Shown here in pieces: positions 3,314 to 23,596 of a stretch of 64,000 nt of DNA; position 1 is the stretch's first letter; every line of letters starts with the position of its first letter. Both the position numbers and the translations under genes were made by a program. Source of the DNA: a phage; NCBI GenBank assembly GCA_020279385.1, contig GCA_020279385.1_4762.1. The stretch is one strand, 5' to 3'. Below the pieces are notes generated by a model, which made no database searches, had not been told where the DNA came from, and saw only the letters and a program-made list of their open reading frames with translations.

Positions 3314-4982
3314 TCATTTCAGTGAATCGCCCACGTTTAACCATCTTGAGATGACGGCTAAAATCATCAGGGTTATGGTCACGATGGCTGATAATATACA
3401 CGTTATCATCTAACTTGTCAATGATGGAATCAAGTGCTTTTACGCCCTGAACGTCCGTAGCCCCATCATAAATTTCGTCGAGTACCAACAAAGAAATATT
3501 AGTACCAGATACTTTACCAGCAACATCACGCCATGTAAAGAGCATCGCAAGGTCAATACGTGCCTTTTCGCCTTGACTGAATGATGTATACGAAAACGAT
3601 TCACGCCCCCGTGATTTGATTGTTTCGTTAAACTCTTCATCTAGCGTAAAGATATAATCCGCTTCCATGATATCAAGATAATACGCAATCCGATCATTGA
3701 AATATGGAATATATTTCTTGACGATAGACGCCTTAACACCGGAATCCTTCAACATTTCTGTTACAAATCCACGATGATATTTTTCAAGAACTAGCTTTGA
3801 TTTTTCATTAGTAATCTCTACCAGTTCGTGTTCCAGTTTAGCAAGTTCTTCGGAATTGTCAACCCTTTCTTTTTGCAATTCTTGCATTGCTTTCTGGATC
3901 TGTTTAGCCCGGCCTACAGATGCCGTTAAATTCGCTCTCTGTGACTCTATAGCGCGTTTAATTTCCAAGACCTTAGTTTGTGCTGTCTGGAAAGAATTGG
4001 CCTTCTCCGCGTATTCTACGCGTTTCTCGTCAATCAGAGACAGTTTATGTTCTGCTTGTGCTTTTTGTTCGCGTACAGCTTGATCATTACCCTGAATGAT
4101 CGGTTGTGTGCACGTAGGACAGATCCCGCCTTTCTCGTGCATATGGATAACACGGTCAAAGTTCTGGATCTGCGCACCAATCTGTGCGATAGCAGTATTA
4201 ATTTTAGCCAATGCCGCGCTAGGATCTTCCGGCATAACAACAGCCAATAGCTCATCGGTCAAGCGCGTTTCTTCGGCTTTAAATGCTTTAGCCGATTCTA
4301 CCTCTTTATCATACATATTCTGCAAACGCTGTAGATTCTCGGCACTAGCCTTGCTCGCGTCCTCTATGTACTTTTTATGAGTGTTGATTTGTTGCTGAAC
4401 GTGATTAGCTTTCATTTCCTGCATTTGGATATTCTGGGTAATCTCGCGCACATACGCTTTATTCAGTTTATCCATTTCGCCTAGCGTAGCAATATCAAGC
4501 AAATCCTCGACCAGTTTACGGCGACCCGCTGCCGGAAGACTCATAAACGGAACATAACCAGCAGTGCCTAAAACAACGATCTGTTTAAAGCTGGCTAGGT
4601 TCATTCCTATGATACCTTCAAAATATTCCTGAAAGTCTTTGGTGCTTGCGCTCTCGTCGATCTTTTGACCGTCGCGATGCACTTCGAATACTTCCGGTTT
4701 TTGACCACGTTTGATATAAAACTCTTTCCCGTCCAGTTCAAACCAGACTTCGACTAACAGTTTCTTTTTGTTGACGCTGTTAATCAATTGGCCTTTCTTG
4801 ATACTACGAAACGGTTTACCGAACAACACAAAGCAAAGCGCCTCGATCATTGTTGATTTACCAGCACCGTTAACACCAGTGATTAGTGTCTTTTTGAATC
4901 CGTCTAGCTGAATCTCTACAGGTTCAGCACCCACGCTCATTATATTTTGATAGCGCAAGGTTTTAAAATTTAACTTTGCCAT
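3300..4982 (-). CDS. 46: Recombination endonuclease subunit gp46 (SbcC/Rad50-like ATPase)
   Basis: 560 aa, N-terminal P-loop GVNGAGKST, coiled-coil middle with CPTC zinc hook, C-terminal LLVLDE signature. Confidence 0.95.
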   Translation of the reverse strand: MAKLNFKTLRYQNIMSVGAEPVEIQLDGFKKTLITGVNGAGKSTMIEALCFVLFGKPFRSIKKGQLINSVNKKKLLVEVWFELDGKEFYIKRGQKPEVFEVHRDGQKIDESASTKDFQEYFEGIIGMNLASFKQIVVLGTAGYVPFMSLPAAGRRKLVEDLLDIATLGEMDKLNKAYVREITQNIQMQEMKANHVQQQINTHKKYIEDASKASAENLQRLQNMYDKEVESAKAFKAEETRLTDELLAVVMPEDPSAALAKINTAIAQIGAQIQNFDRVIHMHEKGGICPTCTQPIIQGNDQAVREQKAQAEHKLSLIDEKRVEYAEKANSFQTAQTKVLEIKRAIESQRANLTASVGRAKQIQKAMQELQKERVDNSEELAKLEHELVEITNEKSKLVLEKYHRGFVTEMLKDSGVKASIVKKYIPYFNDRIAYYLDIMEADYIFTLDEEFNETIKSRGRESFSYTSFSQGEKARIDLAMLFTWRDVAGKVSGTNISLLVLDEIYDGATDVQGVKALDSIIDKLDDNVYIISHRDHNPDDFSRHLKMVKRGRFTEMNVNI

Positions 4983-18416: not shown

Positions 18417-18979
18417 GCGTTAAATGACTTTTGGATCTCTTTCAGTTCAGCTACTTTATCGGCGCTGAATTTAGCGTAGGTATCATGTCGAATAATTTCA
18501 CTTTCAAGAAAGGTTTCCAGCCGAGATCTATTTTCAATAAGGAACTCTTTCAGGTCTTCCGCGTTCTTGATAAAGATTTTATTGTCAGTAATGTCATCTT
18601 CAATCGCAAAGGAGATAGAGCGAACTTTACCAAACAAGTTAATCAGATCTTCCAGCGATTCTTCTTTCTTAACTGGTTTCATTTCTTCAAACTGCTTTTT
18701 AGTGATTCGTTTAAAGTATTTGCGCTCGCTTGCGTCAATCATGATTGACGCGCCCTCATAATCATGAGTTTCTACCAAATACACTTTACCCATAACATTA
18801 ACCGTAAGAACTTTAAAGCCCCTGTGAAGCACACCATACAGGAACTTGTTATGTTGTGGATAGCGTTTGATAAATTCCTCTGCGGACTCAGCATTACGGA
18901 AAGTGTAATAACGACCTCGTTCAAAAACAGCATCATTTGAAGACTTAGCTGGATACAATTTATACGTTTTCTGTACCAT
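18413..18979 (-). CDS. Paralog family B protein
   Basis: MVQKTYKLY... from ATG 18979 with GAGGATTATATT RBS; ERKYFKRITKKQFEEMK motif. Confidence 0.6.
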   Translation of the reverse strand: MVQKTYKLYPAKSSNDAVFERGRYYTFRNAESAEEFIKRYPQHNKFLYGVLHRGFKVLTVNVMGKVYLVETHDYEGASIMIDASERKYFKRITKKQFEEMKPVKKEESLEDLINLFGKVRSISFAIEDDITDNKIFIKNAEDLKEFLIENRSRLETFLESEIIRHDTYAKFSADKVAELKEIQKSFNA

Positions 18980-19329: not shown

Positions 19330-19803
19330 CTATCTTAATCTTTGTATAAATTGTTTCTTATACTTCTTCGTGATCTCTTCTCTTGTATCCGCGTCACAGT
19401 AATCGAAACCTTCTGCGTCCATAATAGCAACCATCTCCGAGCGTGTCAAGCGTGAAAATCGTTTTACTTTATCAACAGCATATTGAGGATGTAAATGATT
19501 GTTGGTGTAGTCTCCTTTGATGTAATTAACATAGTTTGTAGCCCAAACAACGAAATCAGCACCTAAAGCACCAACACCAAACCGTTTAAAGTCTCCGGTC
19601 AACGATCCTTCTAGGCGGTTGCAACACGAATGAAGCAATCCCCTTACGCGGCCTTGCCCTTTCCCATCTAGATCATGATCATGGTCAAGATGGTTTTTGC
19701 TCATATCCTCAAAAAGTGGCAATTGACAAAGGGGGCAAATGCCCCCCTGTTTTTCGAATAGTTCTTGTTTATACTCTTTAGCACTCTTAGCAGTCAGTAA
19801 CAT
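19330..19803 (-). CDS. 49: Endonuclease VII (Holliday junction resolvase) gp49
   Basis: 157 aa from ATG 19803; CPLC..HLDHDHDL..GKGQGRVRGLLHSCCN matches T4 endo VII. Confidence 0.9.
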   Translation of the reverse strand: MLLTAKSAKEYKQELFEKQGGICPLCQLPLFEDMSKNHLDHDHDLDGKGQGRVRGLLHSCCNRLEGSLTGDFKRFGVGALGADFVVWATNYVNYIKGDYTNNHLHPQYAVDKVKRFSRLTRSEMVAIMDAEGFDYCDADTREEITKKYKKQFIQRLR

Positions 19804-19827
19804 AAATTCACCCTCCAAAGAAGGTAT

Positions 19828-20109
19828 TTAACCATTAATCTTGTTTTTGACTACAAAGGATCGGAACTCATCAAAACCACCTATATAATCACCATTATAG
19901 AAAATCTGCGGCATGGTGGCAATAACTTCTACCCCTGCGCGATCCTGAATGTCGGCAATGATAGAATCAATCTTTACCGGACGACCGTTTTCGTCCACAC
20001 CATCATTAACCGGAATGTAGATGTAAGGGATCTTACGCGATTCACAAAGGCGCTTTGCATTCTGGCAATACTTACAGTTATAACCTTCAAAACCAAAAAT
20101 TTCTACCAT
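19828..20109 (-). CDS. nrdC: Thioredoxin/glutaredoxin NrdC
   Basis: CKYCQNAKRL redox motif and MPQIFYNGDYIGGFDEF as in T4 NrdC. Confidence 0.85.
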   Translation of the reverse strand: MVEIFGFEGYNCKYCQNAKRLCESRKIPYIYIPVNDGVDENGRPVKIDSIIADIQDRAGVEVIATMPQIFYNGDYIGGFDEFRSFVVKNKING

Positions 20110-20110
20110 G

Positions 20111-20866
20111 TTATACCTCATTCAGTTCTATATCAAGTTCATTTTCAATAATATAGGCATTAACTGCCCGTGCCGCATCATCTTCTGTGTCAAATCTTCC
20201 TATATACACACCGCGAACTTTAGCACCGTAATTACCTTGTTTTGGTACTTTGTAAACGTATCTATGACGGGAACTTGCTGCTTTTTGGAGCTTCTTGCCA
20301 TATTCAGACTTTGCATATTCTATATCATCAATCTCGTTTATACAAGACCTATCACCAAAATGTTTCAACGCTGCAAGATTATATGCATACGCCGCACCGA
20401 TCTCGGAGGGAAAATATCCTAAATGTATAGACTTCCCATCCAACATTATTGCACCAGTCCAATAACCTTTATTCTTATTAAACGACACACCTTTATACTT
20501 CGAATATGTTTTGCATTTGGTCTTGCTCATATTCATATTATTTTGTTTGCTTGTCGTCTCTCTAAGGTTTTCAATGCGGCTATTATAACGATCTCGGTCT
20601 TTATGATCTATATACTTAGGACAATGACCATGAAACATATGATAGATAACACGGTGCATACGTTCGTATCGCTCGCCAGTCCATACAATACGATACCCAT
20701 CGGGGGTATCACTTCCAGCTAATCCGTTTATAACACCTTTTCGGTGCGGGTGAATCTTCCACCTAAGAAAACCATCATCATAATAAAACCGTGAATGATA
20801 TAAATCATACAAACGTTTATCTTCTGGAGTCTTGTGTATAACATCATATTTTAACATTGGTGACAT
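20111..20866 (-). CDS. HNH homing endonuclease with tandem AP2-like DNA-binding domains
   Basis: IDHKDRDRYNSRIENLRETT HNH motif; two YKGVSF/YGAKVRGVYIGRF AP2-like modules. Confidence 0.8.
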   Translation of the reverse strand: MSPMLKYDVIHKTPEDKRLYDLYHSRFYYDDGFLRWKIHPHRKGVINGLAGSDTPDGYRIVWTGERYERMHRVIYHMFHGHCPKYIDHKDRDRYNSRIENLRETTSKQNNMNMSKTKCKTYSKYKGVSFNKNKGYWTGAIMLDGKSIHLGYFPSEIGAAYAYNLAALKHFGDRSCINEIDDIEYAKSEYGKKLQKAASSRHRYVYKVPKQGNYGAKVRGVYIGRFDTEDDAARAVNAYIIENELDIELNEV

Positions 20867-21659
20867 AAACTTCCTTAGTATCGGATTTTTTACCCCCGCT
20901 ACGATCTAAACAATATGTTTTATCCAGTTCAACAACAGAAACATCATTACGTTCGATAAAATCAAGCAAATGGTTGTTAACTTTCCCTTTGTGGTGAGTA
21001 ACATTGCTTAATCCAAACTTAGTACCGCTAGACATTAATGATTCTATCCACATGTAGAATTTAATCTCTTCTTCTTCACTCCAGAACTTATTATATTCTG
21101 CCGACGTGATCCAATATGGCGGATCAAGGAAAACGAAATCATCCGGCAAGATCTCGATCTCGTCATAGCGACCAGACGTAAAACTGATTCGACCGTCTTT
21201 GTTTTCTTCCTTAAAATTCAGGACACGCTCTACCGCGTTTTCGTTAAAAGTCCGGCGACCAAAATTAGCATTAAATTCTCCCTTCCGGTTATGGCGGTTA
21301 ATGTTGCTAAAACTGTGCTGAATCAGAACAAACAGAGATAGCGGATCTGGATTCTCGTTATACTTCTTGCGGAATGCCATGTAAGCATCTTTATCATCAC
21401 GAGACAAATCATTTTCGGCAATAATCCGCTTGATCGTAGAAACCGGATCAGGACACTCGTCAATCGCTTTGTACGCGTCAATTAAGCGGTGATCATAGTC
21501 ATTCGCCAGAACATCCCCTTCGACGTACAGAGACACGCTCAAGCCGCCACAAAAGGCATCAACAAAGCGGTTATAGTGCTTAGGGAAATACTTACTAACA
21601 CCTGGCAATAACTTTTCCTTATTGCCAGTATAGGGAATTAAACCTAATGCTTTCTTCAT
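20844..21659 (-). CDS. dam: DNA adenine methyltransferase Dam
   Basis: YTGNK, FVDAFCGGLSVSL, DPPY, FGLSNV blocks colinear with T4 Dam. Confidence 0.9.
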   Translation of the reverse strand: MKKALGLIPYTGNKEKLLPGVSKYFPKHYNRFVDAFCGGLSVSLYVEGDVLANDYDHRLIDAYKAIDECPDPVSTIKRIIAENDLSRDDKDAYMAFRKKYNENPDPLSLFVLIQHSFSNINRHNRKGEFNANFGRRTFNENAVERVLNFKEENKDGRISFTSGRYDEIEILPDDFVFLDPPYWITSAEYNKFWSEEEEIKFYMWIESLMSSGTKFGLSNVTHHKGKVNNHLLDFIERNDVSVVELDKTYCLDRSGGKKSDTKEVYVTNVKI

Positions 21660-22090
21660 TATCCCTTCCTCAAATAAGTTCGCTCAATCTCTACCAGTTC
21701 GAAAAATTCATCCCAATCACACGGAAAGTTGCAGTTTCCAAAATGGTCTTCGTTATAGAGTTCTTTACCGGATGGCAGCTTAATATCTGTTACAGTATAC
21801 CAACCGCAACAATCGCAATCACCCTCAGCAACAGAAACCTTCGTAGGAATTTGCATCATTGCTAGATAGGTCGGTACGTCAGACTGTTCAAAGATCATGT
21901 AACCTTCATGGTCAAACGAGACAAAATTGTCATCACCCAAAAAAGGAATGTAATGGTCATAATCGGTTACAGGTTGACCGTGCAATTCCCACTCTACAAT
22001 TTTAACATTACCGCTAAACTTGATACCCATAATGTCAACAAGAAAATGAGTATCGTCAATGTAAATCTTACTAGGAGTTGGATAAACCAT
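21659..22090 (-). CDS. Hypothetical protein
   Basis: 143-aa ORF. Confidence 0.5.
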   Translation of the reverse strand: MVYPTPSKIYIDDTHFLVDIMGIKFSGNVKIVEWELHGQPVTDYDHYIPFLGDDNFVSFDHEGYMIFEQSDVPTYLAMMQIPTKVSVAEGDCDCCGWYTVTDIKLPSGKELYNEDHFGNCNFPCDWDEFFELVEIERTYLRKG

Positions 22091-23287: not shown

Positions 23288-23596
23288 TTAAAAATCTTCT
23301 TCCGGTTTATATCGACCGTCATCGACTGGTTTTGGACTGAATCCTTTATGCGTGCGCGGCTTCGCTTCCGGTTTACCAGCAATCATCAAACCAAAACATT
23401 TCAGCCCCTTATAACACATAACAATATCAACCACGATCCACGTTATAGGCCATAAGATTGCAGCAATACAAAATGCTCCTGTATCGACCTCTTTGGTGTC
23501 CTTGTCGAATCTGGCGTACAAGCAGAATACTAGATACGAGATCATTGCACCAGTAGTCCAGATATAAAGCACATTAACAATATCTTGTGTTGTCAC
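23288..23596 (-). CDS. Hypothetical membrane protein
   Basis: Hydrophobic segments; GTG start 23596 preceded by AAGGAGGATAAT. Confidence 0.45.
   Translation of the reverse strand: MTTQDIVNVLYIWTTGAMISYLVFCLYARFDKDTKEVDTGAFCIAAILWPITWIVVDIVMCYKGLKCFGLMIAGKPEAKPRTHKGFSPKPVDDGRYKPEEDF

What the first reader, a model, noticed from the sequence alone, without database searches (positions are those of the whole stretch)
20111..21659. HNH-AP2 free-standing homing endonuclease wedged between nrdC and dam
A 251-aa protein with an HNH motif (IDHKDRDRYNSRIENLRETT) and two AP2-type DNA-binding modules overlaps the 3' end of dam by 23 nt. This is typical of an intronless homing endonuclease that has invaded the nucleotide-metabolism region, and marks a recent mobile-element insertion.
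Basis: partly seen in the sequence, partly recalled or inferred. Interest (0 to 1): 0.4.

Follow-up and report, generated by a model that had tools for sequence, protein, structure and literature searches.

The report
Known HNH-AP2 homing endonuclease gene
This is an ordinary, already annotated selfish gene (a free-standing HNH-AP2 homing endonuclease) between the dam and nrdC genes of an RB49-like E. coli phage, and it always travels with a strongly diverged copy of the last third of dam.

Summary
ORF 20111-20866 (-) encodes a 251-aa protein with an I-HmuI-type HNH nuclease domain in which all catalytic residues are present. One AP2 domain passes the Pfam cut-off. A second AP2-like module is below threshold by sequence but is supported by the predicted fold. 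The ORF overlaps dam by 23 nt and ends 1 nt before nrdC.

The window is a Krischvirus (RB49-like). Eight of 59 database records carry the ORF at this site and 51 have an empty 8-nt dam-nrdC spacer.

The variable unit is about 1.0 kb (20118-21130), not 729 bp. It includes dam codons 177-271. This tract has 72 fixed differences from HEG-less phages, and its synonymous sites are fully randomised. The tract is perfectly linked to the ORF. The flanks show no association with HEG status.

The cassette is 4-8 times less diverse than its flanks. A 90%-identical variant in a metagenome gives dN/dS of about 0.09.

The best reading is an active or recently active intronless homing element of the MobE/SegG type, with its target probably in dam. 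Cleavage is untested.

The same ORF was reported as a putative homing endonuclease in phage GEC-3S in 2012, and the HNH-AP2 class has been known since 2004. I score interest as low.

The parts
20111..20866 (-). Free-standing HNH-AP2 homing endonuclease gene (251 aa plus stop)
   Evidence: ORF. Pfam HNH_3 and AP2. phrog_99 at E 7e-56. Annotated 'putative HNH homing endonuclease' in GEC-3S, Sf20, KMB43, ELT3 and phiS.
20534..20659 (-). HNH_3 nuclease core (residues 70-111). Catalytic codons: D87 at 20606-20608, H88 at 20603-20605, N100 at 20567-20569, N109 at 20540-20542.
20348..20503 (-). First AP2 DNA-binding domain (residues ~122-173)
20144..20269 (-). Second, divergent AP2-like module (residues ~200-241)
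   Evidence: Pfam AP2 gives only 14 bits, E 0.057. The AF2 model shows strands 204-206, 213-217 and 220-225 plus helix 228-241. It aligns with the second AP2 of P0082, P0070 and P0096. Foldseek aligns 165 columns to the tandem-AP2 protein WRI1. dN/dS is 0.13.
20870..20876 (-). Shine-Dalgarno AAGGAAG for the endonuclease, inside dam codons 261-263. It is present only in the HEG-linked dam allele; RB49 has GCAAGAAG there and its corresponding ATG is followed by TAA.
   Evidence: Sequence read directly. Alignments.
20844..20866 (-). 23-nt overlap between the dam 3' end and the endonuclease 5' end (endonuclease in the +1 frame relative to dam)
20844..21130 (-). HEG-linked, highly diverged dam 3' tract (dam codons 177-271, beginning 2 codons before the DPPY motif)
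   Evidence: 72 of the 73 fixed differences between 8 HEG+ sequences (the window plus 7 fetched loci) and 8 HEG- genomes lie at 20853-21130. Between-group divergence is 22-37% against a background of 2-6%. Linkage is perfect across all 59 records. 39 of 69 same-amino-acid codons differ, against 39.2 expected at full randomisation. 22 of 95 amino acids are replaced, against 3 of 176 upstream.
21131..21659 (-). dam 5' two-thirds, ordinary Krischvirus allele (D12-class N6-adenine methyltransferase)
   Evidence: Pfam MethyltransfD12 at E 2e-30. No fixed differences. dS 0.096 against RB49.
21072..21117 (-). Candidate target or immunity segment (inferred). HEG-less phages MIZ4 and MIZ5 carry HEG+-type sequence here in an otherwise HEG- type dam.
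   Evidence: Site-by-site pattern. Only MIZ4 and MIZ5 among the HEG- records are 96.9% identical here; the other HEG- Krischvirus records listed are 84-90%.
20110..20120 (-). Right junction TGAGGTATAAC. This is the ancestral dam stop plus nrdC ribosome-binding spacer, now reused as the last codons (GAG GTA TAA) of the endonuclease.
   Evidence: Alignment of the window with the empty site in RB49. Sequence read directly.
19828..20109 (-). nrdC (glutaredoxin/thioredoxin-like), downstream neighbour, ordinary Krischvirus allele
   Evidence: Pfam Glutaredoxin. phrog_22. Annotated start in relatives. No fixed differences between HEG+ and HEG-.

Best explanation
The ORF is a free-standing HNH-AP2 homing endonuclease gene, active now or until recently, in a Krischvirus (RB49-like, T4-type) coliphage.

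Shown:
- The protein has an I-HmuI-type His-Me-finger nuclease domain with all catalytic residues, followed by two AP2-type DNA-binding modules.
- The gene is an insertion relative to 51 of 59 close relatives, at exactly the dam stop / nrdC RBS junction.
- It is perfectly linked to a ~287-bp dam 3' allele with saturated synonymous divergence. That allele also supplies the gene's ribosome-binding site and start codon.
- The ~1.0-kb cassette sits in phage backgrounds unrelated to each other by flank similarity, and it is 4-8 times less diverse than the flanks.
- The coding sequence is under strong purifying selection.

Inferred mechanism:
1. The gene has no promoter of its own and is co-transcribed with dam and nrdC.
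2. In a cell co-infected with a HEG-less Krischvirus, the enzyme binds through its AP2 modules. It nicks or cuts the HEG-less dam allele within codons ~177-271, most likely at the distal end next to the DPPY codons (equivalent to window 21060-21135).
3. T4-type recombination repair copies the endonuclease gene together with the intervening dam 3' end from the HEG+ genome.
4. The HEG+ genome is immune because its own dam 3' end differs at roughly one position in three.
5. Recombinants that would place the endonuclease next to a sensitive dam allele are eliminated. This keeps the whole interval in linkage.

For: Presence/absence: 8 of 59 records carry the ORF, with a 729-bp length difference.

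Linked dam tract:
- 72 fixed differences lie at 20853-21130.
- Linkage is perfect in all 59 records.
- Synonymous codon choice is fully randomised, 39 of 69 observed against 39.2 expected. Upstream dam shows 6%.

Spread:
- Flanks are not associated with HEG status (permutation p 0.28-0.65). The tract gives p 0.001.
- Both ICTV species, RB49 and gec3s, contain HEG+ and HEG- members.
- Cassette pi is 0.55%, against 2.6% in nrdC and 4.3% in the dam 5' part.

Selection: against the L021 variant, dS is 0.55 and dN/dS is 0.09. By domain it is 0.05 for HNH, 0.135 for AP2-1 and 0.13 for AP2-2.

Target location: MIZ4 and MIZ5 carry an HEG+-type patch at 21072-21117 without the HEG.

Expression: there is no late promoter (TATAAATA) nearby and no strong sigma-70-like promoter upstream of the ORF. 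The hits near or inside it reach only 9 of 12, in a region where the scan found 18 hits against 13.4 expected by chance.

Precedent: T4 MobE is a promoterless free-standing HNH gene. It nicks T2 nrdB near codons for a conserved residue, causes co-conversion of flanks, and is protected by polymorphisms in its own genome (PMC2790892). The closest other relative (50% identity) occupies a different intergenic site, regA-gp43, in other T4-like contigs.
Against: - No cleavage or homing experiment exists for this protein or for any close relative that I could find.
- The target site is not identified. Recombination inside a 28%-diverged tract is suppressed anyway, so the tract boundary at 21130 could simply be an old crossover point.
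- The MIZ4/MIZ5 patch is a single event; the two phages are nearly identical to each other.
- The nrdC side shows no co-converted foreign tract. That is unexpected if the cassette came in by double-strand-break repair from a uniformly diverged donor.
- Truncated (224 aa) and stop-loss variants exist in public assemblies. Some copies may be decaying, or these may be assembly errors.
- L021 is one short metagenomic contig and could be chimeric.
Confidence: 0.7

Rival explanations
1. Same element, different target. The endonuclease recognises the empty dam-stop/nrdC-RBS junction itself, as intron- and intein-encoded enzymes do, so insertion alone destroys the site. The diverged dam tract is then only a hitch-hiking relic of the first transfer from a distant donor and is not needed for immunity.
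For: - The insertion is exactly at the dam TGA / GGTATAAC junction, and the junction sequence is invariant in the empty sites examined.
- The right boundary of foreign sequence coincides with the end of the ORF in both cassette lineages.
Against: - A break at the junction should co-convert both flanks, yet nrdC carries no foreign tract at all (0 fixed differences).
- The MIZ4/MIZ5 HEG+-type patch lies ~250 bp away, in dam.
- Characterised free-standing T4 enzymes act at a distance from their genes, for example MobE in nrdB (PMC2790892). SegF and SegG behave likewise (from my knowledge of Belle 2002 and Liu 2003).
Confidence: 0.15
2. Passive passenger. The nuclease no longer homes, or never did. 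The dam-3'+ORF block entered Krischvirus from an unsampled relative and has been shuffled among backgrounds by the ordinary, very active T4-type homologous recombination. The high divergence of the block itself prevents crossovers inside it.
For: - Mosaicism unrelated to the HEG is common in the same region, with hypervariable stretches at 18428-18627, 21827-21926 and 23327-23526.
- No donor was found, but the HEG-linked dam allele is closest to Krischvirus dam (78-80% aa) and far from other genera (<60%).
- The element is at low frequency, 8 of 59 records.
Against: - dN/dS of 0.09 over dS 0.55, with the lowest value in the nuclease domain (0.05), shows the protein has been kept functional.
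- All catalytic residues are retained.
- The cassette is 4-8 times less diverse than its flanks while sitting in unrelated backgrounds. This points to a recent directional spread rather than neutral shuffling.
Confidence: 0.1
3. Domesticated function. The HNH-AP2 protein is retained because it benefits the phage, for example by excluding markers of competing phages or cutting competitor or host DNA, or by acting as an AP2-type DNA-binding regulator. On this reading it is not a purely selfish homing element.
For: - Purifying selection acts on all three modules.
- The gene sits in the dam-nrdC transcription unit with its own strong SD.
- The literature describes HEG-related domains co-opted in phage-satellite conflicts (PMC10448857).
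Against: - 51 of 59 close relatives do without it.
- Marker exclusion is the same mechanism as homing seen from another angle.
- Nothing in the sequence separates this protein from the very large HNH_3-AP2 family (97,852 representatives at E <= 1e-3).
Confidence: 0.05

Closest known systems
GEC-3S ORF63 (YP_009118746.1, 'putative HNH homing endonuclease'), with its counterparts in Sf20, KMB43, PHB13, phiS, ELT3 and pEJ01
   Same: - Same gene at the same site. Over the 238 residues aligned by tblastn these counterparts are 98.7-99.6% identical; the full-length GEC-3S protein (P0159) differs from the window's protein only at D8E.
- Merabishvili et al. 2012 already listed it as a homing endonuclease ORF present in GEC-3S and absent from RB49, phi1 and JSE (PMC3528706).
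- A protein identical to the window's is deposited as EIF8777444.1.
   Different: There is nothing substantive in the ORF. The linked dam 3' allele, the MIZ4/MIZ5 patch and the L021 variant are not mentioned in the passages of the 2012 paper that my term search returned. I did not read the paper in full.
T4 MobE (free-standing HNH homing endonuclease between nrdA and nrdB)
   Same: [quoted passage not shown]
- It acts on a neighbouring conserved gene of HEG-less relatives, close to codons for a functionally critical residue.
- Its own genome is protected by polymorphisms.
- Flanks are co-converted (PMC2790892).
   Different: - MobE has a different C-terminal DNA-binding region, not AP2, and is not a detectable sequence relative beyond the HNH core.
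- MobE's nick has been mapped experimentally. Here nothing has been tested.
I-HmuI (Bacillus phage SPO1, PDB 1u3e)
   Different: I-HmuI is intron-encoded and uses NUMOD/helix-turn-helix DNA-binding modules instead of AP2. Sequence similarity is weak (E 0.3).
HNH-AP2 homing endonuclease class (Magnani et al. 2004; Wuitschick et al. 2004; tabulated for T4-related phages by Petrov et al. 2010)
   Same: N-terminal HNH plus C-terminal AP2 architecture. The class was already counted in RB49 (1), JSE (2), RB43 (3), RB16 (6) and KP15 (1) (PMC2993671 Table 5; PMC1524935).
   Different: Most family members near this protein are 150-185 aa with one AP2. This one has a second, divergent AP2-like module, as a minority of relatives do (P0017, P0082, P0070, P0096).
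T4 SegF and SegG intronless homing (Belle 2002; Liu 2003; cited from memory and through the reference lists seen)
   Same: The cleavage site lies in a neighbouring gene, hundreds of bp from the endonuclease gene. The intervening sequence is co-converted with the gene. The result is localised marker exclusion.
   Different: SegF and SegG are GIY-YIG enzymes that make double-strand breaks, and both have been demonstrated experimentally.

Membership tests
HNH_3 / His-Me finger (I-HmuI-like) endonucleases | Profile match above the curated threshold | tested here: met
   PF13392 scores 50.0 bits against a cut-off of 24.8, covering residues 70-111.
HNH_3 / His-Me finger (I-HmuI-like) endonucleases | Catalytic and metal-binding residues (I-HmuI D74, H75, N87, N96) | tested here: met
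   D87, H88, N100 and N109 align to them. D87, H88 and N100 are invariant and N109 is >=90% conserved in 41 homologues.
HNH_3 / His-Me finger (I-HmuI-like) endonucleases | beta-beta-alpha-metal fold | tested here: met
HNH_3 / His-Me finger (I-HmuI-like) endonucleases | Metal-dependent DNA nicking or cleavage activity | not testable with these tools
   Requires biochemistry.
AP2/ERF DNA-binding domain (PF00847) | First module: profile match above threshold and three-strand sheet plus helix fold | tested here: met
AP2/ERF DNA-binding domain (PF00847) | Second module (residues ~200-241): profile match above threshold | tested here: not met
   14.2 bits, E 0.057, against a cut-off of 33.3. The fold (beta3-alpha), the alignment to second AP2 domains of relatives and the 165-column Foldseek match to tandem-AP2 WRI1 support calling it AP2-like, though divergent and shortened at the C-terminus.
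Free-standing homing endonuclease genes of T4-type phages (intronless homing) | Endonuclease ORF between conserved genes, not within an intron or intein | tested here: met
   It lies between dam and nrdC. The empty site in RB49 is an 8-nt spacer.
Free-standing homing endonuclease genes of T4-type phages (intronless homing) | Presence/absence polymorphism at the same locus among close relatives, incongruent with flank relatedness | tested here: met
   8 of 59 records carry it. Flank permutation tests give p 0.28-0.65. HEG+ and HEG- members occur in both ICTV species.
Free-standing homing endonuclease genes of T4-type phages (intronless homing) | Linked flanking polymorphisms consistent with co-conversion and self-immunity | tested here: met
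   72 fixed differences lie in dam codons 177-271, with perfect linkage in 59 records.
Free-standing homing endonuclease genes of T4-type phages (intronless homing) | Site-specific cleavage of the HEG-less allele and super-Mendelian, nuclease-dependent inheritance in mixed infection | not testable with these tools
   Requires cleavage mapping and phage crosses.

The most novel reading that the evidence does not exclude
The endonuclease gene and the last 95 codons of dam form a long-lived 'endonuclease plus immunity allele' haplotype block. Selection against self-cutting recombinants keeps the block together. On this reading the distal edge of the block (window 21060-21135, at the DPPY catalytic codons of Dam) marks the homing site. 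MIZ4 and MIZ5 would be natural HEG-less phages that became resistant through a short-patch conversion of exactly that site. Two diverged versions of the block (this one and L021) persist at the same locus while the flanks recombine freely. If true, this gives a ready-made natural allelic series of sensitive, resistant-without-HEG and HEG+ phages for studying HEG-host co-evolution in a methyltransferase gene.
Probability: 0.35. Interest if true: 0.4.

Novelty: already known. Interest (0 to 1): 0.2.

Why it matters
The finding matters little beyond correct annotation. The gene, its family and its patchy distribution in RB49-like phages are in the literature and in GenBank.

The modest added value is threefold. 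First, the exact anatomy is now clear: a 1.0-kb cassette that recodes the catalytic third of Dam and carries the endonuclease's translation signals inside dam. Second, there is population-genetic evidence that the element is functional and has spread recently across backgrounds. Third, there is a concrete, testable ~70-bp candidate homing site, together with a natural resistant allele in MIZ4/MIZ5.

No HNH-AP2 phage endonuclease with a mapped target turned up in the papers I searched. This would therefore be a convenient E. coli system in which to obtain one.

Tried and rejected
- Paralogues in the window: tblastn of the protein against all 64 kb found none (best E 1.7).
- Own promoter or translational control: there is no T4 late promoter TATAAATA within 8 kb. 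The only sigma-70-like hits near or inside the ORF reach 9 of 12, at chance level. The RBS region shows no significant RNA structure (z -1.17). A MobE-like hairpin or terminator control is therefore not supported.
- Donor of the diverged dam tract:
  - blastn ('distant') and tblastn against 50,697 phage records found nothing closer than Krischvirus itself.
  - The IMG/VR scan found no relative.
  - The metagenome scan found only a 50%-identical HEG at another locus.
  - The one informative hit came from the 90% protein cluster (P0170 on contig L021).
- 'Over-saturated' synonymous divergence: the Nei-Gojobori pS of 0.91 looked like deliberate recoding. I rejected this as an artefact of two-fold sites. 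A codon-choice test gives 39 observed against 39.2 expected at plain saturation.
- More resistant patches in other HEG-less phages: only MIZ4 and MIZ5 carry one.
- The SegF paper (PMC155333) is not held, so the SegF and SegG details rest on my knowledge and on reference lists.
Full report
**What is there**

The minus strand of 19.3-22.1 kb carries, in transcription order:
- a conserved hypothetical gene (21659-22090)
- dam (20844-21659, 271 aa; Pfam D12 N6-adenine methyltransferase, E 2e-30)
- the ORF in question (20111-20866, 251 aa)
- nrdC (19828-20109; glutaredoxin/thioredoxin-like)
- gene 49, endonuclease VII (19330-19818)

Its stop codon (20113-20111) is 1 nt from the nrdC start that all relatives annotate (ATG 20109). 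The motif IDHKDRDRYNSRIENLRETT is at residues 86-105. The finding's coordinates (20111-21659) therefore cover the endonuclease ORF plus all of dam.

**The protein**

- Pfam gives HNH_3 (50 bits, cut-off 24.8, residues 70-111) and AP2 (35.6 bits, cut-off 33.3, residues 122-168).
- PHROGs gives phrog_99 'HNH endonuclease' at E 7e-56 over residues 18-241.
- Against PDB sequences, the AP2 region matches Arabidopsis WRI1 (E 5e-10). The nuclease region aligns weakly (E 0.3) but residue for residue with I-HmuI: D87/H88/N100/N109 against I-HmuI D74/H75/N87/N96.
- In an alignment of 41 family members, D87, H88 and N100 are invariant and N109 is nearly invariant.
- An AlphaFold2 model built on that alignment has mean pLDDT 91.4. 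It shows a beta-beta-alpha core followed by two three-strand-plus-helix modules, at residues 127-173 and 204-241.
- The second module fails the Pfam threshold on its own (14 bits, E 0.057). It aligns with the genuine second AP2 domains of two-AP2 relatives. 'Two AP2-type modules' is acceptable if the second is described as divergent.
- The family is enormous: 97,852 50%-identity cluster representatives at E <= 1e-3. Most near relatives are 150-185 aa with a single AP2.

**Where the window comes from, and the empty site**

Megablast of 19330-22090 finds 59 phage records, all Krischvirus or RB49-like coliphages. Eight cover the query fully at 96-98% identity: KMB43, PHB13, phiS, Sf20, ELT3, pEJ01 and two GEC-3S records. 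The other 51 match in two pieces and lack the ORF, 2032 bp against 2761 bp.

In RB49 the dam stop is followed by an 8-nt spacer and then nrdC. Aligning the filled and empty sites shows three things:
- The net insertion is 726 nt after the dam stop, plus one extra dam codon.
- The last codons of the endonuclease (GAG GTA TAA) are the ancestral TGAGGTATAAC spacer, which carries the nrdC RBS.
- The endonuclease start and its Shine-Dalgarno AAGGAAG lie inside the dam 3' end. They exist only in the HEG-linked dam allele. RB49 has GCAAGAAG, and the corresponding ATG is followed at once by TAA.

**The linked dam tract**

I aligned 5.8 kb from the window, seven other HEG+ genomes and eight HEG- genomes.
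- Of the 73 fixed differences between the two groups, 72 fall in 20853-21130. This is dam codons 177-271, starting two codons before the DPPY catalytic motif.
- Between-group divergence there is 22-37%, against 2-6% elsewhere. Within-group divergence there is below 3%.
- In all 59 records the tract type and the ORF are perfectly linked: 8 records are at >=95% identity and 51 are at 60-80%.
- The tract is a genuine dam homologue. 22 of 95 residues are replaced, against 3 of 176 upstream, and DPPY is retained.
- Synonymous codon choice is exactly at saturation. 39 of 69 same-amino-acid codons differ, against 39.2 expected from local codon usage. In the upstream 176 codons only 6% differ. The Nei-Gojobori pS of 0.91 is an artefact of two-fold sites and is not evidence of deliberate recoding.
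- No sampled phage outside Krischvirus has a closer dam C-terminus. HEG- Krischvirus are 78-80% identical at the amino-acid level and other genera are below 60%.

The variable unit is therefore a ~1.0-kb cassette (20118-21130): a foreign or anciently diverged dam 3' third plus the endonuclease gene.

**Evidence for mobility and function**

- HEG status is not associated with similarity in the flanks. Permutation p is 0.45 for the left flank, 0.65 for nrdC plus gene 49, 0.28 for the dam 5' part and 0.54 for the right flank. The tract itself gives p 0.001.
- Both ICTV species, Krischvirus RB49 and Krischvirus gec3s, contain HEG+ and HEG- members.
- Within HEG+ genomes the cassette has pi 0.55%. 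nrdC has 2.6%, the dam 5' part 4.3% and the wider flanks 4.9-6.0%. One cassette haplotype has thus recently spread over diverse backgrounds.
- The 90% protein cluster contains one divergent member, P0170 (25 substitutions), on ENA contig L021.
- In L021 the context is again dam-3' / HEG / nrdC / gene 49. The HEG differs by about 11% in nucleotides from the window's copy.
- Its dam 3' end is 83% identical to the window allele and 69% to RB49. It has the same SD, the same start and the same C-terminal ...NVKI.
- Its nrdC and gene 49 are ordinary Krischvirus, 1-3% diverged.
- Between the two HEG copies, dS is 0.55 and dN/dS is 0.09. By domain it is 0.05 for the nuclease and 0.13-0.135 for the AP2 modules.
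- The protein, including the second AP2-like module, has therefore been kept under strong purifying selection. The cassette lineage is much older than the coalescence of its flanks.

**Where the target might be (inference)**

HEG-less MIZ4 and MIZ5 carry a 46-68 bp patch of HEG+-type sequence at the window equivalent of 21072-21117. This lies directly after the DPPY codons, in an otherwise HEG- type dam. They are the only HEG- Krischvirus records to do so. The patch sits at the distal end of the diverged tract. It is what a short-patch repair at a cleavage site would leave. The edge of the linkage block would also fall there if recombinants joining the endonuclease to a sensitive site were eliminated.

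The experimentally studied T4 MobE behaves the same way. It is promoterless, it nicks T2 nrdB near codons for a critical residue, its own genome is protected by polymorphisms, and the flanks are co-converted (PMC2790892).

I give this target location about even odds. Two alternatives remain: a target spanning the empty dam/nrdC junction, or no current activity. One puzzle for a simple foreign-donor, break-repair origin is that nrdC shows no foreign tract at all in either cassette lineage. Long-term linkage on the dam side only, with free recombination on the nrdC side, explains this more economically. That argument rests partly on a single short metagenomic contig.

**Expression**

There is no TATAAATA late promoter within 8 kb. 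The sigma-70-like hits near or inside the ORF reach only 9 of 12, in a region where the scan found 18 hits against 13.4 expected by chance. The start region shows no significant RNA structure (z -1.17). The gene is most simply read through from the dam transcript. A 12/12 sigma-70 consensus lies at 23280-23252 on the same strand.

**Comparison with what is known, and novelty**

This very ORF is annotated 'putative HNH homing endonuclease' in GEC-3S. It was listed in 2012 as one of two homing endonuclease ORFs that GEC-3S has and RB49, phi1 and JSE lack (PMC3528706, Table 2). The HNH-AP2 class was noted in RB49 and RB43 in 2006 (PMC1524935) and tabulated across T4-related genomes in 2010 (PMC2993671, Table 5). 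It goes back to Magnani et al. 2004.

What I add is:
- the cassette anatomy
- the linked dam allele
- the population-genetic signs of function and recent spread
- a candidate homing site with a natural resistant allele

All of this fits the standard intronless-homing picture. Interest is 0.2.

Noticed in passing
L005 (phiS, PP449093), equivalent to window ~20893-20897: phiS has one extra G in the GGGGG run near the dam 3' end. This frameshifts the last ~18 dam codons, and its dam is annotated as truncated (771 nt). It could be a homopolymer sequencing error or a real dam-inactivating mutation in a HEG+ phage.
   Followed up: partly
L009 (MIZ4) and MIZ5, equivalent to window 21072-21117: Two HEG-less phages carry a 46-68 bp patch of the HEG-linked dam allele just after the DPPY codons. 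No other HEG-less Krischvirus record does. It may be a natural homing-resistant allele.
   Followed up: yes
L021 (ENA ERZ27241605 k141_94834), whole 2591-bp contig: A second, diverged version of the cassette. The HEG is 90% identical at the amino-acid level, and the dam 3' end is 83% nt identical to the window allele and 69% to RB49. It sits at the same site in ordinary Krischvirus nrdC/gene 49 flanks. The contig is too short to show the upstream edge of its dam tract.
   Followed up: yes
Protein cluster of the HEG (P0166, P0172, P0171, P0167): Public assemblies contain 224-aa truncated copies that lose the helix of the second AP2 module, a 259-aa stop-loss copy that reads into the nrdC start region, and a 253-aa copy with an extra NM from a 6-nt repeat slip. 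These are either decaying copies or assembly errors.
   Followed up: no
window 18428-18627, 18728-18927, 21827-21926, 23327-23526: Short hypervariable stretches with 9-24% pairwise divergence among Krischvirus genomes, against a 1-5% background. They are equally variable within and between the HEG+ and HEG- groups, so this mosaicism is independent of the endonuclease. The first two lie in genes that RefSeq calls 'goF mRNA metabolism modulator'.
   Followed up: no
window 23280-23252 (- strand): A perfect 12/12 sigma-70 consensus (TTGACA, 17 nt, TATAAT) on the same strand, ~1.6 kb upstream of dam. It is a plausible early promoter for the gene string that includes dam, the HEG and nrdC.
   Followed up: no
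L016-L020 (metagenomic T4-like contigs), gene at 4001-4531: The closest non-identical relative of the HEG (P0002, 50% identity, 176 aa, single AP2) sits between regA and the gp43 DNA polymerase gene. The same HEG lineage therefore occupies different intergenic sites in different T4-type phages.
   Followed up: partly
NCBI proteins EIF8777444.1 and EPR6132933.1 (P0160): A protein identical to the window's HEG is deposited as 'HNH endonuclease [Escherichia coli]', and the identical sequence is recorded on contigs up to 164 kb. This looks like a complete Krischvirus genome sitting in E. coli isolate assemblies.
   Followed up: no
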